64,000 nt of DNA, taken from the NCBI GenBank assembly GCA_963731655.1, contig CAVSWL010000019.1, positions 40,609 to 104,608 of the forward strand, given 5' to 3'. The DNA is from an uncultured Gammaproteobacteria bacterium (lineage in GTDB: Bacteria > Pseudomonadota > Gammaproteobacteria > JAAEPA01). The notes beneath the pieces were generated by a model. The model saw only the letters and a list, made by a program, of their open reading frames with translations, was not told the DNA's origin and ran no database searches. The position numbers were made by a program, and so were the translations under genes. This document shows positions 3,055 to 24,365 of the stretch, in pieces; position 1 is the stretch's first letter; every line of letters begins with the position of its first letter.

Positions 3055-3123
3055 GCGTTAAGTCCTTACAACCTTCAGCAGGACTCCTTGGTTCCAATAC
3101 TAAGAAAAAATCAAAGAGGCGAT

Positions 3124-3137: not shown

Positions 3138-3242
3138 TAACTTTGTTTAAATTGAACTTCGTACTAAACTCTCTTTTCTCAAAATTAAATGCTTTCTAGT
3201 CGCTACTATGCGAACCGAAACGCGTGGAAAGGAATTGATATC

Positions 3243-3494: not shown

Positions 3495-3539
3495 GCGCAA
3501 TGCGCTTTGACGAGTAGCTACGGACGAAGGAGTCATGTG

Positions 3540-4364: not shown

Positions 4365-4424
4365 GGTGCTGCGTGTTTTTTAGCTGAATGGATCTCGGGA
4401 ATTCTTAGATTAAGGTAGAGCAAC

Positions 4425-5534: not shown

Positions 5535-5623
5535 ATTGCAGCGTTTGATGTCAGCATCAATCAACGGGAAAACTCCGACTTCTAATCAACTGGCTTGCCA
5601 AGAAGCTTTTCTCGAAGCTTTAC

Positions 5624-7897: not shown

Positions 7898-7933
7898 TCT
7901 CAGCTACACTACCCCATTCGAACGTTTGCGAGC

Positions 7934-8935
7934 ATGGAAGATAAATACATTACCTTAGCCCACGGCAATGGCGGACGGTTCATGCGCGAGCTGATCCAAG
8001 AAATCTTTGTGCGAAATCTGGCGAACCCGGAGCTGGATGTGCAGGCCGATGCGGTTCCGCTAAGCTTGCAGGGTGGGGAACTCATGATCACTACGGATGG
8101 GTTTTCGGTGCAGCCTCTGGAGTTTCCGGGAGGTGATATTGGCTCATTAGCCGTGCACGGCACTACGAATGATCTGGCTGTTGCTGGATCCATCCCGCGT
8201 TTTCTGAGCCTCAATGCGTTTATCGAGGAAGGCATGGAGGTAGCGCAATTGGAGCGTATCATTGCCAGTTTAGCCAAAGCGGCCGATGCGCTGGATGTCC
8301 GAGTCGTGGCAGGGGATACTAAGGTCGTTCCTCGAGGAACGGGGGGCGGGCTCTATCTAGCAACTACCGGAATCGGGGTGCGTCTTAGCACTCAACCCTT
8401 AGGCTTTGAACAAATCAGACACGGTGATGCCATTCTGGTGAGCGGGCCGGTGGGTGATCACGGTACGGCTGTATTGCTTGCTCGGGAGCAGTTCGGGCTC
8501 AAAGGCGATCTGCGATCGGACGCCGCCAGCGTGCTGCCGTTGACTCGAAGTCTATTAGCGTTTGAGGGTTTGCGGTTCATGCGTGATCCCACCCGTGGGG
8601 GGTTGGCCACAGTGCTCCATGAGCTTGCTCATATCACGAATTTTGGGGTGCGTTTGCAAGAAACCGCTGTTCCCGTGCGTCCGCAGGTACGCGCCGTGTG
8701 CGAAATACTGGGTTATGATCCCTATTTTCTGGCCTGCGAGGGTCGGGTTGTGGCTGTGATCGACCCGGCACATGTGGGATCAGCGATAGACGCTATGCGC
8801 CAGCATCCAAGCGGGAGGGACGCGGCGTGTATTGGTCAGATTACTGCCGGGCAGCGGGTCGTGCTGGAGACTGAACTGGGTGGTGAGCGGATTCTCGATG
8901 AACTCGAAGATGACCCGTTGCCGAGGATTTGCTAA
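7934..8935 (+). CDS. hypE: Carbamoyl dehydratase HypE
   Basis: HGNGG, FPGGDIGSLAVHGT, GDTKVV, MRDPTRGG and C-terminal LPRIC. Confidence 0.97.
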   Translation: MEDKYITLAHGNGGRFMRELIQEIFVRNLANPELDVQADAVPLSLQGGELMITTDGFSVQPLEFPGGDIGSLAVHGTTNDLAVAGSIPRFLSLNAFIEEGMEVAQLERIIASLAKAADALDVRVVAGDTKVVPRGTGGGLYLATTGIGVRLSTQPLGFEQIRHGDAILVSGPVGDHGTAVLLAREQFGLKGDLRSDAASVLPLTRSLLAFEGLRFMRDPTRGGLATVLHELAHITNFGVRLQETAVPVRPQVRAVCEILGYDPYFLACEGRVVAVIDPAHVGSAIDAMRQHPSGRDAACIGQITAGQRVVLETELGGERILDELEDDPLPRIC

Positions 8936-8999
8936 GCCGTGTCGCCCGCGTCTCGCAAGCGAGATGGCGAATAACTGATTTATAACGTAGTAAATTGCA

Positions 9000-10064
9000 A
9001 TGAATACAACGAACTTTAACCCTCATAATCAGCGACTGATTGGCGTGTGGTTGCTTATCTGCTGTGCATTGATTTATGCCATGGTGGTGTTGGGCGGCGT
9101 GACCCGCTTAACCGGATCTGGATTATCGATAGTTGAATGGGAACCGCTAGTGGGCGTTGTGCCACCGTTGACCGATGCCGACTGGCAGGAAACATTCACC
9201 CAATATCAGCAGTCGCCGGAATATCAAAAAATCAATGTAGGGATGGATTTGGAAGGATTCAAAAGCATTTTTTGGTTGGAATATCTCCACCGTCTACTCG
9301 GCCGCTTGATCGGCGCCGTATTTTTTCTGCCTTTGCTATTTTTCCTAATTACCCGCAGGCTACACGCCACGTTGATTCCCAAATTGGTAATCGCGTTTGT
9401 GCTTGGTGGCCTACAGGGACTGCTTGGATGGTACATGGTGAAAAGTGGCTTGATAGACAATCCACACGTTAGCCACTATCGACTGACGGCTCATTTGATG
9501 TTCGCTGTGCTGATTTATGGCTATTTACTGTGGGTGGCGCTGGGTCTGTTGTCATCTTCAGCCGGCTCTTCGATTCAGGATTCTTCTCGTACGCTGCGGC
9601 GCTTGACCTATGGTTTGGTCGGCTTAGTCTTGGTTACGCTGGCATCCGGTGGATTGGTCGCGGGGCTGAAGGCGGGTTTAGCCTACAACACGTTTCCGTT
9701 AATGGCGGGGCGTTGGATACCCGAGGGGCTCTTTAATCTGCGACCTTGGCCCATTAACCTGGTGAACAATGCAATGACCGTTCAGTTTGACCATCGCGTG
9801 CTTGCAACGCTGGTATTCGGTGTCATTGTGTGCCTATGGTTAATCGCGCGGCACTATCGATTTCCGAAGCGATTACGTTATGGCGTGCATGCCCTGCTGG
9901 CGGTTGGGGTGTTGCAGGTCAGCTTGGGTATTTCTACTCTCTTGTTTCATGTGCCAGTCTTTTTGGCCGCAAGCCATCAAGCAGGCGCTTTGTTGGTGTT
10001 CACCGCGGTTTTGTTCCTTGCGCACCAGCTACGCACCACGGGTATGCAGCGCGCGGCCGCCTAA
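9000..10064 (+). CDS. ctaA: Heme A synthase (COX15/CtaA)
   Basis: GGVTRLTGSGLSI, EYLHRLLGR, GWYMVKSGL, RLTAHL, QFDHR and HQAG motifs; multiple TM helices. Confidence 0.93.
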   Translation: MNTTNFNPHNQRLIGVWLLICCALIYAMVVLGGVTRLTGSGLSIVEWEPLVGVVPPLTDADWQETFTQYQQSPEYQKINVGMDLEGFKSIFWLEYLHRLLGRLIGAVFFLPLLFFLITRRLHATLIPKLVIAFVLGGLQGLLGWYMVKSGLIDNPHVSHYRLTAHLMFAVLIYGYLLWVALGLLSSSAGSSIQDSSRTLRRLTYGLVGLVLVTLASGGLVAGLKAGLAYNTFPLMAGRWIPEGLFNLRPWPINLVNNAMTVQFDHRVLATLVFGVIVCLWLIARHYRFPKRLRYGVHALLAVGVLQVSLGISTLLFHVPVFLAASHQAGALLVFTAVLFLAHQLRTTGMQRAAA

Positions 10065-10313
10065 TTCATCGGCTTAATGACGTGCTGCCAAACTTGAAGC
10101 GTTGCATTTAGCGCGATCTAAACACCTACCCCTCCTTCACTAAGCCCGCTGCTTGAAGCGGGAATCTGTAATCATAAGCTGCGTACGTCATTCTTCCCTC
10201 GGCAGCCTGCGTGGGCGGTTGCCCCTTACCGAAATTGGTCTTAAGCGGCGTAACTTGTCATGGCGATTGATTGCGATTCGATTCGTCGCTCGAACCGTCC
10301 GTTTCTCCGACAA

Positions 10314-10361
10314 ACCCAATATCTTGTGATTTATATCATGCTATAATACAATTTATTGAGT
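10314..10361 (+). promoter_or_regulatory. Tandem NrdR boxes with an extended -10 promoter for nrdD
   Basis: accCAATATCTTGtga (10314-10329) and ataCAATTTATTGagt (10346-10361), 32 bp apart, resemble acaCwAtATaTwGtgt. TGcTATAAT at 10339-10347. Confidence 0.75.
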
Positions 10362-10398
10362 TTATCGAGCCAACGATCTTGTCAGGGGGTACACCGCT

Positions 10399-12648
10399 AT
10401 GGCCAGTCCGATTTCTACTCAACCCGCCCACACGTGGATTTTACCCACCCAGGTCATTAAACGGGATGGCGCTGTTGCTAGGTTTGAGAAGACTAAAATC
10501 CGCACGGCAATACGTCGAGGGGGAGAGGCTACGGGTGAGTTTGGAGCTGATGAAGCGGAGCGATTGACGGCGGAGGTCATTAAGGTGATCAGCCATCGTT
10601 ACCATCAGGATTTACCACCAGAAATCGAAGCGATACAGGATATCGTGGAACAAGTGCTGATCAGTGCCAATCATTTGAACACGGCCAGAGCGTATATCGC
10701 CTATCGGGATCAGCATAAGCGCCTACGCCAGGATCGCAGCACCGCGGTGGATGTGATCTCTTCCGTGAACGAGTACTTGGAGCGCTTGGATTGGCGGGTT
10801 AATGCTAATGCTAACCAAGGCTATTCTCTAGGTGGACTGATACTCAATGTGTCCGGCAAAGTGATCGCCAACTACTGGCTAAACCATGTCTATGCGCCTG
10901 AAATTGGCGAGGCCCATCGGCAGGGGGATTTGCATATACACGATTTAGATATGCTGGCAGGGTATTGCGCGGGCTGGTCTCTTCGGACCCTGTTGACCGA
11001 GGGACTCAATGGGGTTCCCGGTAAAATCGAGGCGGGGCCACCGAAACATCTATCGAGTGCGGTGGGCCAAATCGTTAACTTTCTAGGGACTTTGCAAAAT
11101 GAGTGGGCAGGCGCACAGGCCTTCAGTTCCTTCGATACTTACATGGCGCCCTTCGTGCGCGTCGACCGGCTTTGCTATGCCCAGGTCAAGCAGTATATTC
11201 AAGAACTTATCTATAACCTAAATGTGCCTTCCCGTTGGGGCACGCAGACTCCCTTTACGAATTTAACCTTTGACTGGGTTTGCCCAGAAGATCTGCGAGA
11301 CCAGGTGCCTATTCTTGGAGGCGAGGAAATGCCTTTTAGTTATGGGGAGTTACAGGCCGAGATGGATATGATCAATCGTGCGTACATCGAGGTTATGACG
11401 GAAGGGGATACCAAGGGACGCATTTTTACCTTTCCGATTCCAACCTATAACATTACCGAGGACTTCCCTTGGGAGGCGCCCAATACCGAGCGCTTGTTCG
11501 CCATGACCGCGAAGTACGGTCTCCCTTATTTTCAGAATTTCACCAATTCTGATCTAAGACCTAATATGGTTCGTTCGATGTGCTGCCGCCTACAACTGGA
11601 CTTGAGAGAATTGCTCAAACGCGGCAATGGGCTGTTTGGTTCGGCCGAACAGACCGGCTCCATCGGCGTGGTAACGCTTAATTGCGCCCGCCTGGGATAT
11701 CGCCATAAAGGCGATGAGACGGGTTTGTTTAAGCGGTTGGATCAATTGATGGAGCTGGCGAGCTCCAGCTTGGAAATCAAGCGAAAGGTGATACAGCGGC
11801 ACATGGACAATGGATTGTTCCCCTATACCAAGCGTTATTTGGGCACACTGCGCAATCATTTCTCGACCATCGGCGTAAATGGCATCAACGAAATGATCCG
11901 TAATTTTACCAATGACCAAGAGAACATCACCACTACTTACGGTCATGAGTTTGCGGGACGATTCCTGGATCATATTCGTGCCCGCATGACGGTGTTTCAA
12001 GAAGAGACGGGGCATCTCTACAATCTCGAAGCCACGCCAGCAGAGGGTACCACGTATCGGTTCGCCAAGGAGGACAAGAAGCGCTATATGGGGATATTAC
12101 AAGCCGGAACAGCGGATGCCCCTTACTACACCAATTCTTCGCAGCTTCCCGTGGGATTTACCGATGATCCCTTCGAGGCGCTAGAGCGGCAAGAGAGTCT
12201 GCAGCAGAAGTATACCGGAGGGACGGTGATGCACCTCTACATGGGGGAGCGCATTTCCAGTCCCGAAACCTGCAAGCGGCTCGTGCGCCGGGCTGTAGAG
12301 GGTTTTCGGGTGCCTTATGTCACGGTGACCCCAACGTTTTCCGTTTGTCCTTCTCATGGTTACCTTGCTGGCGAGCATCCATTTTGCCCACGATGTGATG
12401 CAGAAATTCTGGCGCGCAAGGAACGCGATTCACGAGCTTCGGAGCAGAGTCTAGCGAATCTCCAGCCAGTATCGTCCACCCAAAATAACAATGCCAAGAG
12501 CGACGCCATCCGATTGACCGATGCTGAGCGTCAGGCCTGCGAGGTATGGACCCGGGTGATGGGTTACCACCGGCCTGTGTCTGAATATAATCCCGGTAAA
12601 AAAAGTGAACACGCCGAACGCACTTTATTTCGGGAATGTCGTTTGTAG
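10399..12648 (+). CDS. nrdD: Class III (anaerobic) ribonucleoside-triphosphate reductase with N-terminal ATP cone
   Basis: VIKRDG ATP cone, HIHDL, RSMCCRL, EATPAE, YYTNS, CPSH...CPRC zinc site and RVMGY glycyl-radical loop. Confidence 0.95.
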   Translation: MASPISTQPAHTWILPTQVIKRDGAVARFEKTKIRTAIRRGGEATGEFGADEAERLTAEVIKVISHRYHQDLPPEIEAIQDIVEQVLISANHLNTARAYIAYRDQHKRLRQDRSTAVDVISSVNEYLERLDWRVNANANQGYSLGGLILNVSGKVIANYWLNHVYAPEIGEAHRQGDLHIHDLDMLAGYCAGWSLRTLLTEGLNGVPGKIEAGPPKHLSSAVGQIVNFLGTLQNEWAGAQAFSSFDTYMAPFVRVDRLCYAQVKQYIQELIYNLNVPSRWGTQTPFTNLTFDWVCPEDLRDQVPILGGEEMPFSYGELQAEMDMINRAYIEVMTEGDTKGRIFTFPIPTYNITEDFPWEAPNTERLFAMTAKYGLPYFQNFTNSDLRPNMVRSMCCRLQLDLRELLKRGNGLFGSAEQTGSIGVVTLNCARLGYRHKGDETGLFKRLDQLMELASSSLEIKRKVIQRHMDNGLFPYTKRYLGTLRNHFSTIGVNGINEMIRNFTNDQENITTTYGHEFAGRFLDHIRARMTVFQEETGHLYNLEATPAEGTTYRFAKEDKKRYMGILQAGTADAPYYTNSSQLPVGFTDDPFEALERQESLQQKYTGGTVMHLYMGERISSPETCKRLVRRAVEGFRVPYVTVTPTFSVCPSHGYLAGEHPFCPRCDAEILARKERDSRASEQSLANLQPVSSTQNNNAKSDAIRLTDAERQACEVWTRVMGYHRPVSEYNPGKKSEHAERTLFRECRL

Positions 12649-14382: not shown

Positions 14383-14757
14383 TTATCGGTCTCTGGTTTC
14401 CGCAACAGAGACTGTTCGATCCGCCTCAGTCTCAAGTTCAGTGATCAGTCGATCTAGAGCGGAGCGGACACGGCATGTGAACGCGAAGTACGTCTCGCGA
14501 GGTATAGTGTCTAAACCGACAAGTAAAAGCTCTTCAAGTTTCGTGGCCTGCTGCGAAATGCTTTCAAATCCATAGCTCGCGGCTGATCCCGCCAAACGAT
14601 GCAGCTGTTGGCGTAAATTGTCGGCCGAAGCATGAGTCCAACCGTTGGATTCAGCCGTTTGCCATAACCCTCGGAGGGTGTCGCGCTTGAGTTTAAAAGA
14701 GGCTTGATAAGCCTGTCGCAATTGTTGATATTTTTTTAATCCCTGCTCAGAAATCAT
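14383..14757 (-). CDS. Hpt (histidine phosphotransfer) protein
   Basis: LHRLAGSAASYGF motif; start overlaps the kinase stop. Confidence 0.85.
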   Translation of the reverse strand: MISEQGLKKYQQLRQAYQASFKLKRDTLRGLWQTAESNGWTHASADNLRQQLHRLAGSAASYGFESISQQATKLEELLLVGLDTIPRETYFAFTCRVRSALDRLITELETEADRTVSVAETRDR

Positions 14758-16309
14758 GGGGATTCTTTCGTGCGAGTTGGTGGGTTAGCGCGACCAGATG
14801 CGGCATATCAATGGGTTTTAGCAAATAGCCATTACAACCGGCTTCCAAGGCGCGGATCCGGTCTTTCTCCGAAGGGGAAGCGGTCAATGCGACAATCGGA
14901 TTGGTGAAGTGAGATCGGCGAAGGCGTTCGGTAACAAGGAATCCATCGAAAAGGGGGAGATTAAGATCCATCAATACCAGATCGGGTTCATCGCGCAACG
15001 CGCTGTGCACGGCTTGTTCCCCATTTGAAGCAACGATCACCTCATACCCTGCGTCAGTTAAGAATAGCTCGACAAGTTGCACGATATCGTCATTATCTTC
15101 AGCGATCAGTACCCGCCCTTTGGGGAATGGGTGGTTTGGTGAGGTTGGGTTCGAGGGGAGATGCTTCTCTGATGCTGACGATACGGGCTGAATTGTGACC
15201 GCTGGCAAACGCAGGCAGAAGCGGCTTCCTATACCTGGTTTGGAATCGACACTTAAGCTTCCCCCCATCAACAGCGCGAGATGCTGACTGATATAAAGAC
15301 CTAATCCGGCGCCGGGATTTCTGTTATTAAGACTTTGAAAAGCTTGGAAAATACGTTCTATTCCGGTGTCCGGAATCCCTGGCCCGGTATCCACTACAGC
15401 CGCGATTAATTGATTCTCCCGCCAATCCATTTCAACGCTGATCTCACCATTTTCAGTGAATTTTAAAGCGTTATCGACTAAGTTAAATAGGATCTGCCGC
15501 ACTCTCACCCCATCGAGCTCTAGACATCTAGGGAGTTGATCGCCGACGCTCATATTGAAGTCTAAGTTCTTTTCAGACGCTAGGGGTTGAAATATCGCCA
15601 CAATGTCTTCAGTGATCGAGACAGGGTTCATCGGAGTAGGGTAAATCACCAGCTCTTCGGCATCTAATCTCGCTTGGTCCAGCACGTTATTTACTAGTGA
15701 GAGCAGATGCCTTGCGCTACGCTCGATTGAATTCAAATAATTCGGCAGCTGTTGGTGATGTTCTGGATGCTTCTTTAAGTAGTCGATATACCCCATAATC
15801 GCGGTGAGCGGTGTGCGGAATTCGTGAGACATCCCCGATATAAACCGACTCTTTGCCGCGCTGGCTTCTTCGGCTTGACGGCGTTTGATTGCTAAGTCAT
15901 CGCGAGCTTTCTTAAGCGCTCGCATCAGTTTGCTTTGTTGGTAGGCCTGCAGATTGAGTTCATTGGCCTTTTGTTGAAGTTCTTGTTGTCGTCGGCGAGG
16001 TTCCGTAGCATCAATAAACAAGATGTAGTAATGTCCATGATGCTTGAAAATATCGATATGCGCAGCACAGCCATTGTTCATGTCAACATAGGGGATCTTT
16101 AGAGTGTCTTTGATATTGAGGTCGATGAGAAATGGAAAGCGCTGGGTGCCATCGTCGCCTTTGTCTATGTCTTTGAATCCATAGAAGTATTCGTTTCCTG
16201 CCCAGCTCAAGATTTTCAGCTCATGATCGAGTTCAACCCAGAGGGGTTTGAGACGTTCCTCGGCTATGACGCGTAGCTTGCGGTTGACTCTGAAGGGCAG
16301 GGCGCTCAT
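14747..16309 (-). CDS. Cytoplasmic hybrid sensor histidine kinase/response regulator
   Basis: SHEFRTPL H-box, NLVDNALKFT, DTGPGI, GAGLGL; C-terminal REC domain (AEDND, LMDLNLP, KP). No obvious TM helix. Confidence 0.93.
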   Translation of the reverse strand: MSALPFRVNRKLRVIAEERLKPLWVELDHELKILSWAGNEYFYGFKDIDKGDDGTQRFPFLIDLNIKDTLKIPYVDMNNGCAAHIDIFKHHGHYYILFIDATEPRRRQQELQQKANELNLQAYQQSKLMRALKKARDDLAIKRRQAEEASAAKSRFISGMSHEFRTPLTAIMGYIDYLKKHPEHHQQLPNYLNSIERSARHLLSLVNNVLDQARLDAEELVIYPTPMNPVSITEDIVAIFQPLASEKNLDFNMSVGDQLPRCLELDGVRVRQILFNLVDNALKFTENGEISVEMDWRENQLIAAVVDTGPGIPDTGIERIFQAFQSLNNRNPGAGLGLYISQHLALLMGGSLSVDSKPGIGSRFCLRLPAVTIQPVSSASEKHLPSNPTSPNHPFPKGRVLIAEDNDDIVQLVELFLTDAGYEVIVASNGEQAVHSALRDEPDLVLMDLNLPLFDGFLVTERLRRSHFTNPIVALTASPSEKDRIRALEAGCNGYLLKPIDMPHLVALTHQLARKNPHDF

Positions 16310-16809
16310 CTCACTAGGCGATCTGCGAGCAGCTGGAAGGCTTGACTGACATTGGCGCCTTCTCTAGCACTGGTTTTAAATACAGGCCAATCCTTGTCCG
16401 TTAGATCCTGTATTTCCGCTGGTGTAATCTCCCACTGCGTTTGTAGGTCGTATTTATTGCAAAGTATGACGAAGGGCGGTGCGTCGAGCGCTTGGTCCAC
16501 CGATTGTTTAAGCTGAAGGGCGGTGTCCAGAGTGTAGCGGCGGGTGCCATCGATGACCAGTAAATAACCGGCGGCACCTCGTAGATAACTCGCATCTCGT
16601 GTTCTGAAACGGTCGGTTCCCGCGATATCCCACAAGATCAGCTTGATATTGCATTTATCGGGAAGTGTCACGACCTTAGTATCAATTTTAACTCCCAGTG
16701 TTGACAAATATTTGTCGGAAAACACGCGATGGACATAGCAGGATACCAAACTGGTCTTTCCCACTGCAAAATCCCCGATCATACAAACTTTTTTAGCTAA
16801 TAAACTCAT
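16306..16809 (-). CDS. Rab-like Ras-superfamily small GTPase (Rup type)
   Basis: G1 GDFAVGKT, G2 STLG, G3 WDIAG, G4 NKYD, G5 SAR; 167 aa, no C-terminal prenylation tail. Confidence 0.92.
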   Translation of the reverse strand: MSLLAKKVCMIGDFAVGKTSLVSCYVHRVFSDKYLSTLGVKIDTKVVTLPDKCNIKLILWDIAGTDRFRTRDASYLRGAAGYLLVIDGTRRYTLDTALQLKQSVDQALDAPPFVILCNKYDLQTQWEITPAEIQDLTDKDWPVFKTSAREGANVSQAFQLLADRLVR

Positions 16810-16814: not shown

Positions 16815-18749
16815 CTATTTCGCAAACAGCCGGGTTAAATCGGTCGCATAGAGTTGCACGAAGAAGTTAACACGCCGCTGTTTCGGGTCCACTGGAGGGA
16901 AAGCGTACGGTTCGTCGCCTTGCCCGACGCTGAACAGCTTTGAGTCCAGGCCCTCTCGGAGCAAAATATCGAGTACTTCTTGAGCGCGTTGATTACGCAG
17001 TTGTTGGTTCAATTCGGGTACACCGATCGCATCGGTACCCCCCCGCAGCGTGATGTGCAAGCGCCAACCGATTTTGTCGGCCAGCTTTGCCATCAAACGC
17101 AACTCAGCAACTATCTTTTGCAATTTATCCCGGGAATTATCCAGCAGTTGCCGTCCAGATGAGAAGAAAAGTTCTTCGTTATCGATTTCTTGCTTGAGCG
17201 CTTGGAGTCGATTGGATTCCTCGCTGCCAAGCTGTTTAATATCCAAGCCCTTCAACCATTCAATCTTTGCAATTCTTCCGGGCAGCGAATGGATCCATGC
17301 CCAAGGGGCTACGCCGCTGATGTTAAGCTTGGCGTGATCGACGCTGAGTGTCACGCTTTCCGGCGGGCTCAAACTTTCGATGGCCTCACGTAGCAAGCTT
17401 TGATCATCCGCAGTTACTTGGCTAAGGTCAACTCGATTCACGCCCGCGATGTAACGCCCGTAGGTCTGGACTGCGTGTATCCAGGGATAGGGGGCGGTTC
17501 CTGACGCCTTCAGAGTGCCGTCGGCCAATTCCAGCCGGACCTTATCCGGTGTCTCAAACCATCGTTTTATACGTTGTATTACAAGGTCCGTTTCCATGGA
17601 GTGATAGGCTTGAAATTGGAATCCAACGCGGTCAATATTCAGTCCCAGTGACTGGGCAAGAGCAACGGGATCCGCAGCTAAAGGATCACGTAACCCTCTG
17701 AAGATGCGTTTCCCTTGATCAGTGTAGCTATCGGTGAGCACAATACCGGGCGTGGTGGCTAGGCTCGTTTGCAGGCTGGCAATCTGCTTGTTTTCCCGAT
17801 GCGTCGATATCAGCCAATAGCCCCCTACACTTATCAACATCCCGAAGAGAGCCAGCGATACGAGCAAACGCACACGATGAGGCCGGCGCGGTTGCGTCGC
17901 GCCTCCTTTTAATTGCACGTCCAGGCACTGCTGTAACAGGGGTTTCAGCTCTGGAAGCGTTTCGCGATCACCTTGGAAGTTAACTAATTTTTGATGGAAT
18001 CGTCGTTCGATGTCTTCCAATATGAGAACCAGTCGCTCGCGAAGTTGTAGCGGCGCGATGCCACGAATCACGCAAGCCAACATGATTGCCGGACCGTTAT
18101 AAATAAGCCAAGTGGTATGGCCGCCGATCTCAATGGTGTCTAGCCCGTCGGCGGAATCGGCATCAAACGAATCGGAAACGAAATCTCGGATCGCGGTGAA
18201 CATAGCTGAAACCGCATCACTATCCTTTATGGTAACGTCGGGGTGAGCCGCGTGTGCGATCAGTACTCCCGTCTTATGTTGAATCAAAAATACCTGTTCC
18301 ACCCGATAGACCAAGGTATGTTTGAGTACAATCTCATGAAAAGGCAGACCGGTACGGATAGCTTCGAGGCGCCATTTTAGGCCCTGAACGGAGAAAGACT
18401 GATCGATGGTTTGATTGATGCCCTGCACAAATGCGCGCAAGGTTTCTATAATCGAGCGGCGAATAGCCGGCATGATTGCGGGAAACAGGGCCTCAGCAAA
18501 GATTTGGGTTTGGTTGCGTGCCAAATCTTGAACGCATTCGGTGACGGGTGCTTGTAATGCTTGGGTTAAATCAGGTCCTTTTTCGGTACTTAAGGCGATG
18601 GATTCGGGTAAGCACTCGGCCATATCTCGCGCCCGTTGCTTCGGATCTACGACCCGTTCATCTAAAGCGTTAATGTGGCGGCGTTCATCTCCGAGAAGAA
18701 TTTGCTTGAGTTCATCGAACTCAGTCAATACGGTCTCATTCTGATTCAT
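16815..18749 (-). CDS. Single-pass membrane protein: cytoplasmic N-domain, BON-like repeats and C-terminal OmpA-like domain
   Basis: Likely start MNQNE at 18749; TM VRLLVSLALFGMLISVGGYWLI; two similar repeats (P..V.L......L..SG.AP..WIH); GTDAIGVPELNQQLRNQRA peptidoglycan-binding motif. Confidence 0.8.
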   Translation of the reverse strand: MNQNETVLTEFDELKQILLGDERRHINALDERVVDPKQRARDMAECLPESIALSTEKGPDLTQALQAPVTECVQDLARNQTQIFAEALFPAIMPAIRRSIIETLRAFVQGINQTIDQSFSVQGLKWRLEAIRTGLPFHEIVLKHTLVYRVEQVFLIQHKTGVLIAHAAHPDVTIKDSDAVSAMFTAIRDFVSDSFDADSADGLDTIEIGGHTTWLIYNGPAIMLACVIRGIAPLQLRERLVLILEDIERRFHQKLVNFQGDRETLPELKPLLQQCLDVQLKGGATQPRRPHRVRLLVSLALFGMLISVGGYWLISTHRENKQIASLQTSLATTPGIVLTDSYTDQGKRIFRGLRDPLAADPVALAQSLGLNIDRVGFQFQAYHSMETDLVIQRIKRWFETPDKVRLELADGTLKASGTAPYPWIHAVQTYGRYIAGVNRVDLSQVTADDQSLLREAIESLSPPESVTLSVDHAKLNISGVAPWAWIHSLPGRIAKIEWLKGLDIKQLGSEESNRLQALKQEIDNEELFFSSGRQLLDNSRDKLQKIVAELRLMAKLADKIGWRLHITLRGGTDAIGVPELNQQLRNQRAQEVLDILLREGLDSKLFSVGQGDEPYAFPPVDPKQRRVNFFVQLYATDLTRLFAK

Positions 18750-18847
18750 AGCAAGCAACGCGTTATGCAAATTTACTCGAGATGCGTAACAATGCGTTCC
18801 ATTAACACGATGCGTTAGAAAAATAGGTATGGGATATGGGGCCGACG

Positions 18848-19531
18848 CTATATCTGTTCTAGCCGGTAACCATGCTGATAAATTGAAATCAACTGCCAAC
18901 CATTCTCAGGTTTAATATCCAGTTTACGCCGCAACCGGCTGATATGCGTGTCTACGGTACGGGTTATGATATTTGGTTTTTTCCCCCACACATTCTCCAG
19001 AATGTAGCTACGTGATAGGGCACGCCCGGAGTTCCGAAACAATAATAGCGCCAAGTCGAACTCTTTTTCAGTGAGCACTATTTTTGTACCATTGCATTCC
19101 ACCTGCCGCCGTGTGCCGTTCAGCGTATAGGGCGGATATTCGATCACGCTTCCCGTGTGTTGCGGAGCTCTGCCGCGTCGCATGATCACCTGTATCCGTG
19201 CCAACATCTCCCGCCGTTTGATGGGTTTAGGCATATAGTCATCGGCTCCCCGTTCCAACGCGGTCACGACATCACTTTCCTTATCACGGCGGGTGATGAA
19301 GAGTACCGGCATAGGCCAATCGATGTGTTCGCGCACCCAATCGAGCACTTCAAGGCCATCCAGTCCGGGAACGATCCAATCTAAAATGAGCAGGTCGAAA
19401 CTCGCATGCAATAAGCCTCTAATAGCCTCGTGTCCGTTACTAAAACACACCGTTTTATGGCCAGCCTCCATTAACCAGAGTTCAAGCAACTCAGCCTGGT
19501 CTGGATCATCTTCCAATAACGCTATTTGCAT
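18848..19531 (-). CDS. OmpR-family DNA-binding response regulator
   Basis: LEDD, LDWIVPG, GADDYMPKP; winged-helix LTEKEF...RTVDTHISRLRRKL. Confidence 0.93.
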   Translation of the reverse strand: MQIALLEDDPDQAELLELWLMEAGHKTVCFSNGHEAIRGLLHASFDLLILDWIVPGLDGLEVLDWVREHIDWPMPVLFITRRDKESDVVTALERGADDYMPKPIKRREMLARIQVIMRRGRAPQHTGSVIEYPPYTLNGTRRQVECNGTKIVLTEKEFDLALLLFRNSGRALSRSYILENVWGKKPNIITRTVDTHISRLRRKLDIKPENGWQLISIYQHGYRLEQI

Positions 19532-20061: not shown

Positions 20062-21276
20062 ATGGCAAAAACGTTGGTTGTTGGTACAGGTGAAGATTCA
20101 CCTGTACCATTTCTCCGAGGAATTCTCACTCGTTCATTGCAGGATGCCGGATTATCCTTCAATAAAGCTTACAAGATTTCCTCAGTCGTACGTGATGACT
20201 TGAACGACACGGATAAAATAGCAACTTTTGAGCTGCGTAAACGGGTAGCGGAGCGTGTGCGACAGAGTTACGGGGAAGCGGCGGCGAGCCGTTATTTGCG
20301 TATCAGCCAAATTTCTGCGCCCGTCATGGTCCGCTATGAGGATGGTGAGGTAACGCCTTTTTCCAGCGGCTATCATCGGCATTATCTGGAGGCAATCAGC
20401 CTGCCATACGAAGAAGCACTGGTAGTGACCCAGAGGCTAAATGAGCAGCTAAAGAGGGACCAAGTGAGAGAAGTGAGTGCGCAGGCTCTGGAAAGGCTCA
20501 CTTACCGTTTGCTCAGCAATGACAAGGAATTTGGTCCAGCAGTGGCTCGCCGTTATTTGCTGTGGACTCAGTTTCTGCGTAGTGGACGGCCGCTGATCCT
20601 CTTGCTGGGTGGAACCGCAGGCTGTGGCAAGAGCACGTTGGCTACCGAACTTGCCAATCGTCTCGAAATCGTGCGTAGCCAGTCCACTGATGGCCTTCGA
20701 GAAGTGATGCGCATGATGTTGCCCGAGCGCCTTCTGCCGGTGCTACACACCTCTTCGTTTACCGCGTGGCAAGCGCTTCCCGAGTGGGGACGGGAAACCG
20801 ATCATGATATGCTTCTGGCAGCAGGATACCGAACCCAGGCGGAACTTCTGGCCGTGCCTTGTGAGGCTGTGATCCAACGTACATTGAAGGAACGGGTATC
20901 CATGATTTTGGAGGGGGTGCATGTTCATCCGCTGCTATTGGACAGGATTGAACGTAATACCGGTGCCATCGTTGTGCCGATCATGATTGCGGTATTAAAA
21001 CCCAATCAGCTGCGTTCGCGTATCCGGGGTCGAGGTAACCAGTTGCCACGACGGAGCTCCAAGCGCTATTTAAGGTATTTTGACGCGATATGGCGCTTGC
21101 AGTCCTATCTCTTGTCTGAGGCTGACCGAGCAAAAATCGTGATTATCCCGAATGACGACAAAGAAAAAGCCATTCAGGAAATTATGCGAACCATCATCAG
21201 TCACCTCGCTCGTGAATTCTCAGGGAATCCCAATGAAATTTTTTCCAATACTGCAGGCGATTCTGAAACCGTGTAG
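20062..21276 (+). CDS. 2-phosphoglycerate-kinase-like P-loop kinase with two ATP-cone-like N-terminal repeats
   Basis: VPFLRGILTRSL and TPFSSG repeats, GGTAGCGKST, STDGLREVMR, LHTSSF, ILEGVH. Confidence 0.75.
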   Translation: MAKTLVVGTGEDSPVPFLRGILTRSLQDAGLSFNKAYKISSVVRDDLNDTDKIATFELRKRVAERVRQSYGEAAASRYLRISQISAPVMVRYEDGEVTPFSSGYHRHYLEAISLPYEEALVVTQRLNEQLKRDQVREVSAQALERLTYRLLSNDKEFGPAVARRYLLWTQFLRSGRPLILLLGGTAGCGKSTLATELANRLEIVRSQSTDGLREVMRMMLPERLLPVLHTSSFTAWQALPEWGRETDHDMLLAAGYRTQAELLAVPCEAVIQRTLKERVSMILEGVHVHPLLLDRIERNTGAIVVPIMIAVLKPNQLRSRIRGRGNQLPRRSSKRYLRYFDAIWRLQSYLLSEADRAKIVIIPNDDKEKAIQEIMRTIISHLAREFSGNPNEIFSNTAGDSETV

Positions 21277-21316: not shown

Positions 21317-22672
21317 TTAGGATTGGTGGTCTGCCGCACGTTCTGAGTGCTGCAAGCGTACCCTCTGCGGAGGAAACTGGCAGCTAAAGCTCGATCCGCG
21401 GCCGACTTCGCTGCTGATTCGAAGTTCCCCGCTGTGCCGATCAAGCACCTGTTTTACGATCGCAAGCCCCAGGCCGGTGCCGCCGGATTTTCGAGAACGC
21501 GCACGGTCAACCCGGTAAAAACGTTCGGTGAGCCGCGGAATATGCCGTGCGGCGATGCCTTTGCCTGTATCAGTGACGGTGCAGTGTGCACCAGCCTCGT
21601 TGGTATCCCACTGAATGTGGACCTTGGCGTGCGCTGGTGTATGTTGAACGGCATTAATAATCAGATTGGAAAACGCGCTGCGCAGTTCGTCATGATTGCC
21701 TGCTAGCCAAAGTTGTGGGTTAGCCTCAAGCGTCAAGTTATGGGCGGAGCTGCCACTCAAAGCGCGGGCTTCCTGGGTAATCGAGGCGAGCAACTTAGGA
21801 ACCGGCACAGGTTCGTCTGAAGGTGGGGATTGTTTCATCTGCAAGCGGGATAAGGTCAATAGCTCATCGATGATCCGTTTCATGCGCTGGGCTTGGCTTT
21901 CCATTAGTTCTACGGAGCGTGCCCAGTTGTGCAGCTCAGCTCCAGCCGCTGTTGGCCGCAAGTTCTCCAGAAAACCCATAATTACCGTCAGAGGTGTACG
22001 TAATTCGTGAGAAACATTGGCCACGAAGTCCTGCTGAGCTTGGTTAAGGAGGTAAATTTGAGTGACATCCCTGGCGACCAACAAGTGATGGTGCGCCTTG
22101 CCGAAGGGAGTGATGCGCAACGACAGTATTTTACTTTTATCGCCGGGCGCTGTGATTTCAATGGGTTGGCTGTAATCGCCTTTATCAAGATATTCTTCGA
22201 GTACGGGATGGCGAATGAGCTGGACTAAATACTGTCCCCTGGCTTTGGGCCAGGGCAATCCAAGCATGCGCCTGGCCGCCGGATTACTCCATTCGATGAC
22301 CCCATATTCACCTAGGATAAGCACGGCATCTTCCAGGGCACTAGCGGCTTCACGGAAACGAGAAAATTTAACTTTGCGTCTTTTAGCCTGTTGTAATCGC
22401 TGGACCTCGATAAACAATGGCTCCCATAAACCGCCAGGAAATGGAGGGCGAAGCGCTTCGCCGGCGGCTAGGTGGTAGGTTAAACGGAAACCCACTGAAA
22501 GGTGCCATCCCAGATAGCCGAGCGCAACGCCGCCGAAACCGGCGATTAACCAGCGATTCTCCAGTAGAACGCCGCTGATGCCTATCAAGAAGATAGCTGA
22601 TATCCGCCAAGACTCGCTGATTAGAGCCGGAGTGAGTCGGGAGCGGCGATGTTTTTTGAATGGTTCTCCCAC
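21317..22672 (-). CDS. phoR: Phosphate regulon sensor kinase PhoR (start uncertain)
   Basis: N-terminal TM, PAS (WSNPAA...LIRHP), FVANVSHELRTPLTV, HIPRLTERFYRVD, GGTGLGLAIVK. Confidence 0.9.
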   Translation of the reverse strand: MGEPFKKHRRSRLTPALISESWRISAIFLIGISGVLLENRWLIAGFGGVALGYLGWHLSVGFRLTYHLAAGEALRPPFPGGLWEPLFIEVQRLQQAKRRKVKFSRFREAASALEDAVLILGEYGVIEWSNPAARRMLGLPWPKARGQYLVQLIRHPVLEEYLDKGDYSQPIEITAPGDKSKILSLRITPFGKAHHHLLVARDVTQIYLLNQAQQDFVANVSHELRTPLTVIMGFLENLRPTAAGAELHNWARSVELMESQAQRMKRIIDELLTLSRLQMKQSPPSDEPVPVPKLLASITQEARALSGSSAHNLTLEANPQLWLAGNHDELRSAFSNLIINAVQHTPAHAKVHIQWDTNEAGAHCTVTDTGKGIAARHIPRLTERFYRVDRARSRKSGGTGLGLAIVKQVLDRHSGELRISSEVGRGSSFSCQFPPQRVRLQHSERAADHQS

Positions 22673-22785: not shown

Positions 22786-23469
22786 TCACTGGGAGGAAAG
22801 GCGATAGTCTACGCTGCGAACGGTTTGAATCAAGCGTTCCAGTCCGAAGGGTTCCAAGGCTTTGCGCAGATGGCGGACATGAACATCGATGGTACGTTCT
22901 TCTACGTGGATTGTTTTATCCCAGATCGATTGAATCAGGTGGGTGCGGCTGTGTACTGTTTCAGGGTGAGTCATGAGAAACTTCAGCAAGCGAAATTCCG
23001 TAGGTCCCAGGCCGATCAAATGGCCATAGACGCTGACCCGACGAGTGACCGAATCGAGGCGTAACACATTAATTTATATGGAATTTAAGGGCGGCTTGGT
23101 GTTCGCACGACGTAACAGCGCGGCGATGCGCGCCACCAGTTCGCGCGGTGAGAAAGACTTAGTCATCTAATCATCGGCCCCGGCATTCAAGCCAGACTCT
23201 TTACTGTTTTCCTCCGAACCTGCGGTTAACATGATGATGGGAATATCCTGAACGAGTGTATCTTCTCGCAGCGAGTGTGTGAACTCCAGGCCCGGACACC
23301 CGGGTAACATCCAGTCCAACAGAATTAAATCGGGACGTTCTTTTTTAATGAGGGCTTGAGCCGTGTCCGCCTCTGTGTGTGCATATCCTGCCTCTGCGAG
23401 CGTCATCCCGATCATTTTCCGAATGGCAGGCTCATCCTCGACGATGGGTATTCTGGTAGGCGCACTCAT
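22786..23469 (-). pseudogene. phoB: phoB pseudogene with two in-frame stops
   Basis: REC half (PDLILLDWMLPG) and wHTH half (LGPTEFRLL...HVEERTIDVHVR) lie in one frame. TAG at 23167-23169 replaces the Y of GADDY, and TAA sits at 23074-23076. Confidence 0.9.
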
Positions 23470-23561: not shown

Positions 23562-24365
23562 TCATCCAAACCGTCCCTCGATATAGTTGGCGGTGTCTTC
23601 ATGGGTGGGGGCGACGAACATCTCGTCGGTGGCGGCATGCTCGATAACTTTGCCCATCAGCATGAAGATACATTCTTGGCTGGCGCGGCGTGCCTGGGCC
23701 ATGTTATGGGTTACGATCAAAATGGTATAGCGGCCACATAACTCCCAGATCAATTCTTCCACGGCTTCGGTTCCTTTGGGGTCCAATGCCGAGCAGGGTT
23801 CATCCATCAATAGGATATTGGGTTTAACGGGTAGCAACCGGGCAATACACAGTTTCTGCTGCTCCTCTAGGGAAAGACTGGTGGCTTTGCGTTTGAGCCG
23901 GTCTTTAACTTTGTCCCACAGCAGCACTTGTCGTAGCGAATTTTCAATAATCTCGTCCTGTTCACTCCGCGAGGCGCGTTTGCCCTCGGTGTCGAGTTTA
24001 TATCCGAACAACATATTATCGCGGATCGATAGAGGTAGAGGATTGGGGCGCTGAAAGACCATGCCAATCTGCTTGCGAACTTGTAGGAGTTCCACGTCTG
24101 AATCATAGATATTCTTATCGAACACCTTGATTGTACCCTGGATACGCACGGAGTCGAGACGCTCATTGATGCGGTTGATACTGCGCAAGAAGGTCGATTT
24201 GCCGCAACCGGAAGGACCGATGATCGAGGTGATTTTGCCCTGTTTGATATTGAGATCGATGTCGTATAGCGCTTGGAAGGTGTCATACCATAGATTCAAC
24301 TTTTCGGTATGGATGGCGCAGGGTTCGGTGTTGAGGGGTGGACTTAAGGGATATTTGGCATTCAT
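23562..24365 (-). CDS. pstB: Phosphate ABC transporter ATPase PstB (degenerate signature motif)
   Basis: GPSGCGKST, GMVFQRPNP, MDEPCSALDP, VTHNMAQA, YIEGRFG; signature reads LSLEEQQK. Confidence 0.92.
   Translation of the reverse strand: MNAKYPLSPPLNTEPCAIHTEKLNLWYDTFQALYDIDLNIKQGKITSIIGPSGCGKSTFLRSINRINERLDSVRIQGTIKVFDKNIYDSDVELLQVRKQIGMVFQRPNPLPLSIRDNMLFGYKLDTEGKRASRSEQDEIIENSLRQVLLWDKVKDRLKRKATSLSLEEQQKLCIARLLPVKPNILLMDEPCSALDPKGTEAVEELIWELCGRYTILIVTHNMAQARRASQECIFMLMGKVIEHAATDEMFVAPTHEDTANYIEGRFG

What the first reader, a model, noticed from the sequence alone, without database searches (positions are those of the whole stretch)
17985..18320. Longin/roadblock-like domain inside the OmpA protein: candidate membrane-anchored GAP/GEF
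Seen: ahead of the TM helix the protein reads VEQVFLIQHKTGVLIAH...DSDAVSAMFTAIRDFVSDSF...LDTIEIGGHTTWLIYNGPAIMLACVIRG...LRERLVLILEDIERRF, a beta-beta-alpha-beta-beta-beta-alpha pattern. Known: longin/roadblock folds (MglB, Mon1-Ccz1, TRAPP, Ragulator) regulate small GTPases. Inference: this segment regulates the adjacent GTPase, which lacks the catalytic Gln and may need a partner, making the protein a receptor-like GTPase regulator.
Basis: inference. Interest (0 to 1): 0.75.

Follow-up and report, generated by a model that had tools for sequence, protein, structure and literature searches.

The report
Longin-like domain beside bacterial Ras-like GTPase
The flagged stretch is predicted to fold like the longin/Roadblock domains that control small GTPases in eukaryotes, and it sits on the inner face of a cell-wall-anchored membrane protein whose gene is always followed by a Ras/Rab-like GTPase gene; the gene cluster was catalogued in 2014, but its working has never been tested.

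Summary
Window 17985-18320 (-) encodes residues 144-255 of a 644-aa protein (16815-18749, -). AlphaFold2 models residues 146-281 as beta-beta-alpha-beta-beta-beta-alpha(-alpha). Three fold searches return only longin/Roadblock-class structures: VAMP7, Sec22b, TRAPP Trs23, Fuzzy and Mon1-Ccz1 at Z 11-12.8, MglB and LAMTOR at Z about 10. A TM helix follows about 13 residues later, then an OmpA-like domain.

The gene is the 'unknown domain-TM-OmpA' component of the Group 1 Rup small-GTPase module described computationally by Wuichet and Sogaard-Andersen 2014 (PMC4316618). A Ras-like GTPase gene follows it in 75 of 79 related loci; the other four run off their contig. That GTPase has no Gln at the Ras-Q61 position in 0 of 70 relatives. 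Next come a PAS-like hybrid histidine kinase and an Hpt gene.

The function is inferred only. My best reading is a membrane-proximal GTPase-docking and regulating platform; GEF versus GAP is open. The complex predictor was unavailable. Sequence-level membership in Roadblock or longin families was not shown.

This scan reached the same fold reading on at least seven other genomes. I found no paper stating it. It is a new member of a known kind, of moderate interest.

The parts
18848..19531 (-). OmpR/PhoB-type response regulator (receiver + winged-helix), first gene of the cluster
   Evidence: Pfam Response_reg 6.4e-23 and Trans_reg_C 9.5e-21. A homologue (E<1e-30) lies upstream of the membrane-protein gene in 51 of 79 related loci.
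16815..18749 (-). 644-aa membrane protein (P0002): cytoplasmic helical region, longin/Roadblock-like domain, one TM helix, periplasmic repeats, OmpA-like domain. This is the 'unknown domain-TM-OmpA' component of the Group 1 Rup module.
   Evidence: ORF (the longest form starts at TTG 18899); translation. At least 1949 homologues. Single copy in its own genome. Component described in PMC4316618 section 18.
18351..18749 (-). N-terminal helical region (residues 1-133) with a very conserved stretch FAEALFPAIMPAIRRSI (residues 84-104; P90, P94 and R97 invariant)
   Evidence: Model helices 3-34, 36-57, 60-79, 81-115, 121-133. Invariant columns. Coordinates. Its fold was not tested on its own.
17907..18314 (-). 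Longin/Roadblock-fold domain (residues 146-281; core 146-256 = 17982-18314). The finding's 17985-18320 lies inside it.
   Evidence: AF2 secondary structure. Foldseek top hits are Ragulator, MglB, Sec22b, TRAPP and Mon1-Ccz1. VIA Z up to 12.8 and 12.5. Invariant R149, G161, D176, M183, F190, G209 in 80 sequences.
17808..17867 (-). Single transmembrane helix (residues 295-314), preceded by RRPHRVR (N-terminus inside)
   Evidence: Highest Kyte-Doolittle 19-residue windows start at residues 292-297. The model shows a helix at 292-309. Topology by the positive-inside rule is inference.
17292..17546 (-). Two similar periplasmic segments (residues 402-424 and 464-486, pattern ..V.L......L..SG.AP..WI)
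   Evidence: Seen in the translation and the family consensus; coordinates. Some relatives carry a Pfam BON domain in this region. Not analysed further.
16884..17153 (-). OmpA-like (peptidoglycan-associating) C-terminal domain
   Evidence: Pfam OmpA E 9.1e-6 at 26.4 bits, just under the 27.2-bit cut-off. Weak matches to Tpn50, MotB and OmpA chains and to NCBIfam OmpA-like anchors. PF00691 is precomputed for this cluster and for many homologues.
16306..16809 (-). 167-aa Ras/Rab-like small GTPase (Group 1 Rup type), starting 5 nt after the membrane protein's stop codon
   Evidence: Pfam Ras 1.6e-30. G1 GDFAVGKT, G3 WDIAGT, G4 NKYD, G5 SAR. Gln at the Ras-Q61 position in 0 of 70; Phe at the Ras-G12 position in 70 of 70. 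Junction sequence.
14747..16309 (-). Soluble hybrid histidine kinase: PAS-like N-terminal domain (residues 1-101, 16007-16309), long helix carrying invariant Gln112 (codon 15974-15976), HisKA, HATPase_c, receiver. Its start overlaps the GTPase stop (ATGA).
   Evidence: Pfam. Alignment A3: G38 and Q112 invariant in 60 sequences. AF2 pLDDT 94. Foldseek hits phytochrome, FixL and FlrB PAS domains. Junction.
14383..14757 (-). Hpt phosphotransfer protein, overlapping the kinase's end by 11 nt
   Evidence: Pfam Hpt 3.3e-8; junction.

Best explanation
The segment is the core of a cytoplasmic longin/Roadblock-fold domain of about 135 residues. It sits directly under the inner membrane, about 13 residues before the single TM helix, in a protein whose periplasmic end carries an OmpA-like, probably peptidoglycan-associating, domain.

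The protein is the membrane component of a Group 1 Rup module. The cluster reads: OmpR-type regulator, this protein, Rab-like GTPase Rup, PAS-like hybrid histidine kinase, Hpt.

Most likely mechanism (inferred):
1. The longin-like domain, probably as a dimer, is the docking platform for the co-translated Rup GTPase.
2. It couples a change on the periplasmic or cell-wall side to Rup's nucleotide state or availability.
3. Rup then acts on the kinase's PAS-like/coiled-coil input, and the signal passes by phosphorelay (kinase, Hpt, response regulator) to transcription.

Within this reading I favour an exchange-factor or state-specific tether role, a receptor-like GEF as in the eukaryotic longin Rab-GEFs, over an MglB-type GAP. 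My rough odds are: GEF or tether 0.35, GAP 0.15, binds Rup without changing its nucleotide state 0.1.

Shown: the sequence, the predicted fold, the gene order and its conservation, and the GTPase motifs. Inferred: binding, direction of signalling, and GEF versus GAP.
For: Fold:
- The AF2 model has mean pLDDT 82, with most of 146-280 above 75.
- Foldseek's top hits are all Roadblock or longin proteins, probability 1.00, E about 1e-3.
- VIA-align gives longin domains Z 11-12.8 with 117-133 aligned residues at rmsd 2.7-3.7, and MglB/LAMTOR Z 10-10.7 with 101-109 aligned.
- The Foldseek-independent search of 48,161 chains lists 50 entries, all of this class, Z 12.5 to 7.7.
- In the ESM Atlas the three nearest named clusters shown are Asgard ones: a 'hypothetical protein' cluster (0.87), a 'Roadblock/LAMTOR2' cluster with Fuz_longin_1 on 22% of members (0.85) and an adaptor small-chain cluster (0.84). 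These are leads only.

Linkage to the GTPase:
- In 75 of 79 related genome loci a Rup homologue follows the gene. The other 4 loci end within 64 nt of it.
- In 43 of 69 measured junctions the stop and start codons overlap by 4 nt. In the window the gap is 5 nt, and the GTPase and kinase genes overlap as ATGA.

Same compartment: there is no signal peptide, and the domain precedes the only TM helix, which has an Arg-rich N-side.

The GTPase probably needs a partner: Gln at the Q61 position in 0 of 70, and an invariant Phe at the G12 position.

The most conserved part of the domain is the cap and first helix, DSDAVSAM..I.DF, with D176, M183 and F190 invariant. From recall, this is the helix that forms GTPase-contacting surfaces in MglB and longin GEF complexes.

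The module was described, with the 2014 authors' hypothesis of a conservon-like signalling complex, in PMC4316618 section 18.
Against: - There is no direct evidence of binding; the complex predictor was unavailable.
- No Pfam Roadblock or longin model matches at E<=0.1. A PF03259 scan of the whole genome finds nothing, this gene included.
- A profile of the domain finds no Roadblock or longin chain among PDB sequences.
- hhalign against 29 bacterial Robl_LC7 proteins gives only E 0.011 and probability 3.9%, although the strands and the helix align in register.
- The first helix, the supposed interface, has the lowest confidence in the domain (pLDDT 68-82 by block).
- The N-terminal helical region is at least as conserved (P90, P94, R97 invariant) and could be the real GTPase-binding part.
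- The 2014 paper's candidate for the trans-acting catalytic residue is the kinase's invariant Gln, which I confirm (Q112), not this protein.
- Longin folds also occur in proteins that do not regulate GTPases (SNAREs, adaptor sigma/mu chains), and these are among the best matches.
- The coiled-coil partner gene found in 75 of 79 related loci is missing here.
Confidence: 0.55

Rival explanations
1. MglB-like GAP or co-GAP. The domain is a Roadblock homologue that, as a dimer, stimulates GTP hydrolysis by Rup. It does so alone, supplying a conserved Arg such as R149 or R229, or together with the kinase's Gln112.
For: MglB and other Roadblock chains match at Z 9.8-10.7. hhalign aligns the domain in register with bacterial Robl_LC7 proteins: G161 falls on their invariant Gly, and DSDAVSAM on their ExDAxAAM. 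Rup lacks the Q61 Gln, so a trans-acting catalytic residue is plausible (PMC4316618 section 17, passages seen). R149 is invariant and R229 nearly so.
Against: From recall of Miertzschke 2011, as cited in PMC4316618: MglB supplies no catalytic residue and only positions MglA's own Arg and Gln, which Rup lacks. The invariant Phe at the G12 position would hinder a classical arginine finger (inference from Ras G12 mutants, recalled). Longin matches score 1-2 Z units higher than Roadblock matches and cover 20-25 more residues. No Pfam PF03259 match.
Confidence: 0.15
2. Scaffold only. The longin-like domain dimerises the membrane protein or binds the coiled-coil partner or the kinase, and does not touch the GTPase. 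Rup is handled by the conserved N-terminal helices or by the kinase's PAS/coiled-coil region.
For: From recall, Roadblock and longin domains are dimerisation modules, as in Ragulator and the adaptor cores listed. The N-terminal region carries invariant P90, P94 and R97. The kinase N-terminus has an invariant Gln and was the 2014 authors' candidate. A coiled-coil protein gene lies next to the membrane-protein gene in 75 of 79 loci and shares an N-terminal motif with it.
Against: Some family members begin with the domain and lack the N-terminal helices (domain at residues 12-158, 30-174 and 18-161 in P0125, P0196 and P0231). Two of them, P0196 and P0231, still carry an OmpA match above Pfam's cut-off, while P0125's is below it (22.1 bits). 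So the domain, not the helices, is the constant core. Whether those genes sit beside a Rup gene was not checked.
Confidence: 0.2
3. Small-molecule sensor. The alpha/beta sandwich is a PAS-, GAF- or profilin-like ligand-binding domain that senses a cytoplasmic metabolite.
For: These folds share a similar beta-sheet-plus-helices layout (recalled). No sequence family assigns the domain.
Against: None of the 50 entries listed by the search of 48,161 chains is a PAS, GAF or profilin structure, and none appears in the rows listed. By contrast, the kinase's N-terminal domain does return PAS structures with the same tools.
Confidence: 0.05

Closest known systems
Group 1 Rup GTPase system (Wuichet and Sogaard-Andersen 2014, Genome Biol Evol 7:57, PMC4316618; sections 16-18 read or searched)
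   Same: Rup GTPase with Ras-like G motifs but no G3 Gln. A neighbour with a conserved unknown domain, a TM helix and OmpA. A histidine-kinase output whose N-terminal region has an invariant Gln. All three are present here.
   Different: The coiled-coil fourth component is absent from this window; it lies directly upstream in 75 of 79 related loci. This gammaproteobacterial subtype adds an OmpR-type regulator and an Hpt gene. The paper left the membrane protein's domain as 'unknown function'; here it models as longin/Roadblock. The paper's supplementary table S2 was not consulted.
MglA/MglB (Myxococcus, Thermus): small GTPase with a Roadblock-dimer GAP
   Same: A bacterial Ras-superfamily GTPase paired with a Roadblock-class fold. 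MglB chains match at Z about 10 over 101-109 residues.
   Different: MglB is a small soluble protein that matches Pfam PF03259; this domain does not and is fused to a TM helix and an OmpA-like domain. Rup keeps the Ras-type DxxG motif but lacks the Gln. MglA's own Arg and Gln are recalled from PMC4316618 passages. Sequence relation is weak only.
Actinobacterial conservon (CvnA-D, Mfp): histidine kinase + Roadblock protein + DUF742 + MglA-like GTPase
   Same: A small GTPase, a Roadblock-class protein and a histidine kinase are encoded together. The 2014 authors drew the same analogy.
   Different: In the conservon the kinase is the membrane component and the Roadblock protein is soluble. Here the Roadblock/longin-like domain is the membrane-anchored part and the kinase is soluble with a PAS-like input. 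The GTPase families also differ (MglA group 2 versus Rup).
Eukaryotic longin-domain Rab GEFs (TRAPP Trs23/Bet5, Mon1-Ccz1, CPLANE Fuzzy-Inturned) and longin SNAREs
   Same: These are the best structural matches: 2j3t_D Z 12.8, 9rs9_A Fuzzy 12.6, Sec22b 12.4, Mon1-Ccz1 11.0-11.1, covering residues 145-282 including the C-terminal helices. The partner GTPase is Rab-like by its best Pfam match and motifs.
   Different: Sequence identity is 9-14% in those rows. No longin Pfam model matches. This is a single domain in a bacterial envelope-spanning protein rather than a soluble multi-longin complex. GEF activity is untested.
MotB/Pal/TssL-type OmpA-like peptidoglycan anchors
   Same: An N-in single TM helix followed by a periplasmic linker and a C-terminal OmpA-like domain. 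Weak matches to MotB, Tpn50, Pal and TssL models.
   Different: Those proteins have short cytoplasmic tails. This one has a conserved cytoplasmic region of about 290 residues with the longin-like domain. Its OmpA score is just below Pfam's cut-off.

Membership tests
Group 1 Rup module (PMC4316618) | Ras-superfamily GTPase with eukaryote-like G1-G5 motifs but no Gln in G3 | tested here: met
   Pfam Ras 1.6e-30. G3 reads WDIAGT. Gln at that column in 0 of 70 (S 22, T 20, A 8, K 6, E 5, N 4, G 2, D 2, R 1).
Group 1 Rup module (PMC4316618) | Neighbouring gene for a protein with a conserved unknown domain, an inner-membrane helix and a C-terminal OmpA domain | tested here: met
   The GTPase gene follows it in 75 of 79 related loci, and the other 4 are cut by contig ends.
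Group 1 Rup module (PMC4316618) | Output protein (histidine kinase or GGDEF/EAL) whose N-terminal region has an invariant Gln | tested here: met
   Hybrid kinase at 14747-16309. Q112 is invariant in 60 of 60 aligned N-termini. It lies on the long helix after the PAS-like domain.
Group 1 Rup module (PMC4316618) | Coiled-coil cytoplasmic protein encoded in the same neighbourhood | tested here: not met
   No match to a profile of this protein anywhere in the 64-kb window. It lies directly upstream in 75 of 79 related loci. One distant homologue lies elsewhere in the genome (E 6.1e-15). The paper says the neighbourhood is 'composed of' these genes, so this is a variant and not an exclusion.
Group 1 Rup module (PMC4316618) | Placement of the GTPase inside the Group 1 clade of the Rup tree | not tested
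   No tree was built with the paper's reference sequences.
Roadblock/LC7 (Pfam PF03259; MglB, LAMTOR2) | Alpha-beta-beta-alpha-beta-beta-beta fold | tested here: met
   At fold level only. MglB 3t1s Z 10.6 (rmsd 2.6, 107 aligned), Asgard Roadblock 9jue Z 10.7, LAMTOR 6ehp_B Z 10.3. Streptomyces Roadblock/LC7 3kye Z 9.8. The alignments start after the Roadblock N-terminal helix (chain residues about 25-27).
Roadblock/LC7 (Pfam PF03259; MglB, LAMTOR2) | Match to the family's sequence model above its cut-off | tested here: not met
   No PF03259 row for the protein at E<=0.1. A genome-wide six-frame search with PF03259 gave 0 matches at E<=0.01, this gene included.
Roadblock/LC7 (Pfam PF03259; MglB, LAMTOR2) | Detectable profile-profile homology | tested here: inconclusive
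   hhalign of the domain alignment (80 sequences) against 29 Robl_LC7 proteins from 21 genomes: E 0.011, probability 3.9%, 73 columns, strands and helix in register.
Roadblock/LC7 (Pfam PF03259; MglB, LAMTOR2) | Dimer that binds and regulates a small GTPase | not testable with these tools
   The complex predictor was unavailable.
Longin domain (SNARE-like superfamily; TRAPP, Mon1-Ccz1, Fuzzy, VAMP7) | Beta-beta-alpha-beta-beta-beta-alpha-alpha order with the C-terminal helices packed on the sheet | tested here: met
   Secondary-structure order. Z 12.8 (2j3t_D, 127 aligned, rmsd 2.9), 12.7 (4afi_A), 12.4 (1ifq_A) over residues 146-281. Z 12.5 in the Foldseek-independent search. This rests on a prediction, not a solved structure.
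Longin domain (SNARE-like superfamily; TRAPP, Mon1-Ccz1, Fuzzy, VAMP7) | Match to a longin sequence model | tested here: not met
   The Pfam scan at E<=0.1 lists only OmpA and a sub-threshold TarS_linker. The profile against PDB sequences finds no longin chain. The ESM Atlas gives a 0.85 lead to an Asgard cluster in which 22% of members carry Fuz_longin_1.
OmpA-like peptidoglycan-associating domain (PF00691) | Match to the Pfam model above its cut-off | tested here: inconclusive
   26.4 bits against a cut-off of 27.2, E 9.1e-6. PF00691 is precomputed for this cluster. Weak matches to OmpA-like chains and NCBIfam models.

The most novel reading that the evidence does not exclude
The domain is a true longin-type exchange factor (or GAP) for a Rab-like bacterial GTPase, switched from the periplasmic side through a peptidoglycan-bound OmpA-like domain. 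That would be a one-pass 'receptor-GEF', with the PAS-kinase acting as effector and Gln-donating GAP. It would show that the longin-Rab regulatory pairing, thought typical of eukaryotic and Asgard membrane traffic, also exists in thousands of bacterial lineages. It would also bear on the 2014 proposal that Rab/Ras/Rho-type GTPases came from a Group 1 Rup-like bacterial gene.
Probability: 0.3. Interest if true: 0.75.

Novelty: new member of a known kind. Interest (0 to 1): 0.42.

Why it matters
Group 1 Rup modules are widespread: the domain profile finds 5434 cluster representatives. They are the bacterial small GTPases most like eukaryotic Rab/Ras, yet none has been studied experimentally in any paper I could find.

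Naming the 'unknown' domain of the membrane partner as a longin/Roadblock fold turns a vague cluster into a concrete, testable scheme: envelope-anchored platform, GTPase, PAS-kinase, phosphorelay. It also names specific residues to mutate: R149, D176 and R229 in the domain, F14 and T65 in Rup, and Q112 in the kinase.

If the domain proves to regulate Rup, it would extend the longin/Roadblock-GTPase partnership to a transmembrane bacterial receptor. For this window alone the gain is small, because it is one more copy of a catalogued module and the same fold reading was already reached by this scan on other genomes.

Tried and rejected
- Sequence-level links gave nothing clear: phmmer of the whole protein against PDB sequences gave only weak OmpA/MotB matches; the domain profile against PDB sequences gave only spurious helical hits; NCBIfam gave only OmpA-like anchors; hhalign against Robl_LC7 was weak.
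- I searched the window for the coiled-coil partner and found none.
- I considered that the N-terminal helices of this protein are a fused copy of the coiled-coil partner. hhalign aligns only a 33-column N-terminal motif at E 0.012, so fusion is not supported; a shared short motif is possible.
- I considered a PAS/GAF sensor fold for the domain and rejected it.
- The representative search lists only the best 150 of 5434 hits. I therefore could not see whether annotated Roadblock proteins appear in the weak tail.
- Residue-level superposition on MglA-MglB or Mon1-Ccz1-Ypt7 interfaces was not possible, because the tools return no coordinates.
Full report
**What is there.** The finding's coordinates translate exactly to the quoted peptide. 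They lie in a minus-strand ORF, 16815..18899. Homologues align from the ATG at 18749, so I take the protein as 644 aa (P0002). The flagged stretch is residues 144-255.

Pfam assigns only a C-terminal OmpA-like domain, at 26.4 bits against a 27.2-bit cut-off, and nothing to the first 500 residues. NCBIfam and a sequence search of the PDB also see only OmpA/MotB-like similarity at the C-terminus. The single hydrophobic helix is residues 295-314, preceded by RRPHRVR. The first 290 residues should therefore be cytoplasmic and the OmpA-like end periplasmic; this topology is inferred.

**Fold.** I aligned 89 homologues to residues 1-310 and ran AlphaFold2 on that alignment. The model has mean pLDDT 82.
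- Residues 3-133 are long helices.
- Residues 146-281 form E146-157, E163-168, H177-194 (+H197-204), E205-208, E211-217, E222-230, H234-256, H268-273, E278-280.

Foldseek against the PDB lists Ragulator subunits, Asgard Roadblock, MglB, Sec22b, TRAPP Bet5/Trs23, Mon1-Ccz1, Fuzzy and adaptor small chains. Probability is 1.00 and E is about 1e-3.

VIA-align on Foldseek's candidates gives these scores:

| Match | Z |
|---|---|
| Trs23 (2j3t_D; 127 aligned, rmsd 2.9) | 12.8 |
| VAMP7 longin | 12.7 |
| Fuzzy | 12.6 |
| Sec22b | 12.4 |
| Mon1-Ccz1 | 11.0-11.1 |
| MglB, Asgard Roadblock, LAMTOR (over residues 147-257) | 10.1-10.7 |

A search that does not depend on Foldseek, over 48,161 representative chains, lists 50 entries, all of the longin/Roadblock class, with Z from 12.5 to 7.7. 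No PAS, GAF or profilin structure appears among them. Longin matches score 1-2 Z units higher than Roadblock matches and cover the two C-terminal elements as well. The topology is therefore closer to longin, but the two folds are closely related.

At sequence level the link is weak:
- No PF03259 or longin Pfam match.
- Nothing from a domain profile against PDB sequences.
- hhalign against 29 bacterial Robl_LC7 proteins gives E 0.011 and probability 3.9%, although the strands and the conserved helix cap (DSDAVSAM against ExDAxAAM) align in register.
- The ESM Atlas points, below its reliable range, to Asgard clusters: 'hypothetical protein' (0.87), 'Roadblock/LAMTOR2' with Fuz_longin_1 on 22% of members (0.85) and an adaptor small-chain cluster (0.84).

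**Context.** The cluster on the minus strand is:
1. OmpR-type response regulator (18848-19531).
2. This membrane protein (16815-18749).
3. A 167-aa Ras-like GTPase (16306-16809; Pfam Ras 1.6e-30).
4. A soluble hybrid histidine kinase (14747-16309).
5. An Hpt protein (14383-14757).

The GTPase starts 5 nt after the membrane protein's stop. The kinase start overlaps the GTPase stop (ATGA), and Hpt overlaps the kinase end by 11 nt.

I examined 79 related loci from other genomes, mostly Gammaproteobacteria such as Woeseiaceae, Chromatiales, Methylococcaceae and Beggiatoa relatives, plus Acidobacteriota.
- A GTPase homologue follows the membrane-protein gene in 75. The other four loci end within 64 nt of it.
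- In 43 of 69 measured junctions the two genes overlap by 4 nt.
- A kinase follows the GTPase in 68 of 79, and in 55 its N-terminus matches the window's.

The GTPase family has invariant G1, G4 and G5 motifs. It has no Gln at the Ras-Q61 position in any of 70 sequences, and an invariant Phe at the Ras-G12 position.

The kinase's N-terminal 155 residues model with pLDDT 94 as a PAS-like domain followed by a long helix. Foldseek returns phytochrome, FixL and FlrB PAS domains. The one invariant polar residue is Q112, on that helix.

**What is known.** This is the Group 1 Rup system of Wuichet and Sogaard-Andersen 2014 (PMC4316618). I read section 18 in full and passages of sections 3 and 15-19. 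They describe:
- a Rup GTPase lacking the G3 Gln;
- a coiled-coil protein;
- a kinase or GGDEF/EAL output with an invariant N-terminal Gln, which they suggest may act in trans as the missing catalytic residue.

They state that no Rup protein had been characterised.

In the held library I found no later paper on Group 1 Rup. The phrase occurs only in that paper. No paper links Rup to a longin or Roadblock partner. The one other paper with 'Rup' and 'MglB' only cites the classification (one passage). The library lacks most subscription journals, so this is not proof of absence.

This scan's earlier notes reach the same reading on at least seven other genomes. I saw them after forming my own reading and tested the same claims here independently.

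**How this copy differs.** A profile of the coiled-coil partner, which has the N-terminal motif NVDKIRDILFGGQMR, finds it directly upstream of the membrane-protein gene in 75 of 79 loci. One further locus has it under a mis-set start. It finds nothing in the 64-kb window. The gap between the regulator and the membrane-protein gene is only about 100 nt. One distant homologue lies on another contig of the same genome, beside a GGDEF gene. The membrane protein is single-copy in the genome.

**Mechanism.**
- Shown: the fold prediction, the compartment, the invariant gene order, tight translational coupling, and a GTPase that lacks the usual catalytic Gln.
- Inferred: the longin-like domain, held against the membrane and linked through one TM helix to a cell-wall-associated domain, docks Rup and sets its nucleotide state or availability. 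Rup then acts on the PAS/coiled-coil input of the kinase, and the phosphorelay ends at the OmpR-type regulator.

I lean towards an exchange-factor or state-specific tether role, for three reasons. The best structural matches include the longin domains of Rab GEFs. Rup is Rab-like. The kinase's invariant Gln offers a separate candidate for the GAP role.

This preference is weak. MglB-like co-GAP activity, or a pure scaffold role, cannot be excluded. The equally conserved N-terminal helices (P90, P94, R97 invariant) may be the true GTPase site. The domain's most conserved element is the cap and first helix (D176, M183, F190 invariant), which is also the least confident part of the model.

**Verdict.** The locus is one more member, lacking the coiled-coil gene, of a module catalogued in 2014. 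The fold assignment of its 'unknown' domain seems not to be in print, but this scan has made it repeatedly.

Noticed in passing
window 18750-18847, and own genome L080:1453-2199: The coiled-coil partner gene, found directly upstream of the membrane-protein gene in 75 of 79 related loci, is absent from the window. Only about 100 nt separate the response regulator and the membrane-protein gene. A distant homologue (248 aa, E 6.1e-15) lies on another contig, next to a GGDEF gene and glutamine synthetase.
   Followed up: partly
window 18651-18722 (residues 10-33 of the membrane protein); L003:1406-1957 and other coiled-coil partner genes: The N-terminus of the membrane protein (EFDELKQILLGDERRHINALDERV) resembles the invariant N-terminal motif of the coiled-coil partner (NVDKIRDILFGGQMREYERRF..LE). 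hhalign aligns 33 columns at E 0.012. This may be a shared short binding or pairing motif.
   Followed up: partly
window 16306-16809 (GTPase residue 14): The P-loop reads GDFAVGKT. The residue at the Ras Gly12 position is Phe in 70 of 70 relatives. Together with the missing Gln61, this suggests very low intrinsic and arginine-finger-type GTPase activity.
   Followed up: partly
window 15974-15976 (kinase Gln112) and 16007-16309 (PAS-like domain): The invariant Gln that the 2014 paper proposed as a trans-acting catalytic residue lies on the long helix that links the PAS-like domain to the HisKA domain (motif QQ.ANEL), not in the PAS core.
   Followed up: partly
L049 (Candidatus Parabeggiatoa record) 2532-12362: This locus has two tandem copies of the membrane-protein gene (2532-4901 and 5618-8851), and a free-standing ORF matching only the kinase's PAS-like N-terminus (9282-9728), ahead of the GTPase and kinase genes.
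   Followed up: no
P0122 (2171 aa) and P0203 (1664 aa) from the representative search: These giant proteins carry two or three stretches matching the longin-like domain, together with CARDB, TPR and DUF5915 matches and no OmpA. They show an unusual architecture for the family, or are mis-joined gene calls.
   Followed up: no
window 17292-17546: Two similar periplasmic segments of about 23 residues (DKVRLELADGTLKASGTAPYPWI and ESVTLSVDHAKLNISGVAPWAWI) lie between the TM helix and the OmpA-like domain. Some relatives carry a Pfam BON domain in this region.
   Followed up: no
window 22786-23469 (-): A PhoB-like response regulator appears as two separate ORFs: a receiver half at 23167-23469 and a DNA-binding half at 22786-23067. 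They lie between a PhoR-like kinase gene (21317-22672) and a PstB-like gene (23562-24365). This may be a frameshift or a sequencing error.
   Followed up: no
window 20062-21276 (+): A divergently placed gene encodes an ATP-cone domain fused to a P-loop kinase-like (AAA_18) domain. Its function was not examined.
   Followed up: no
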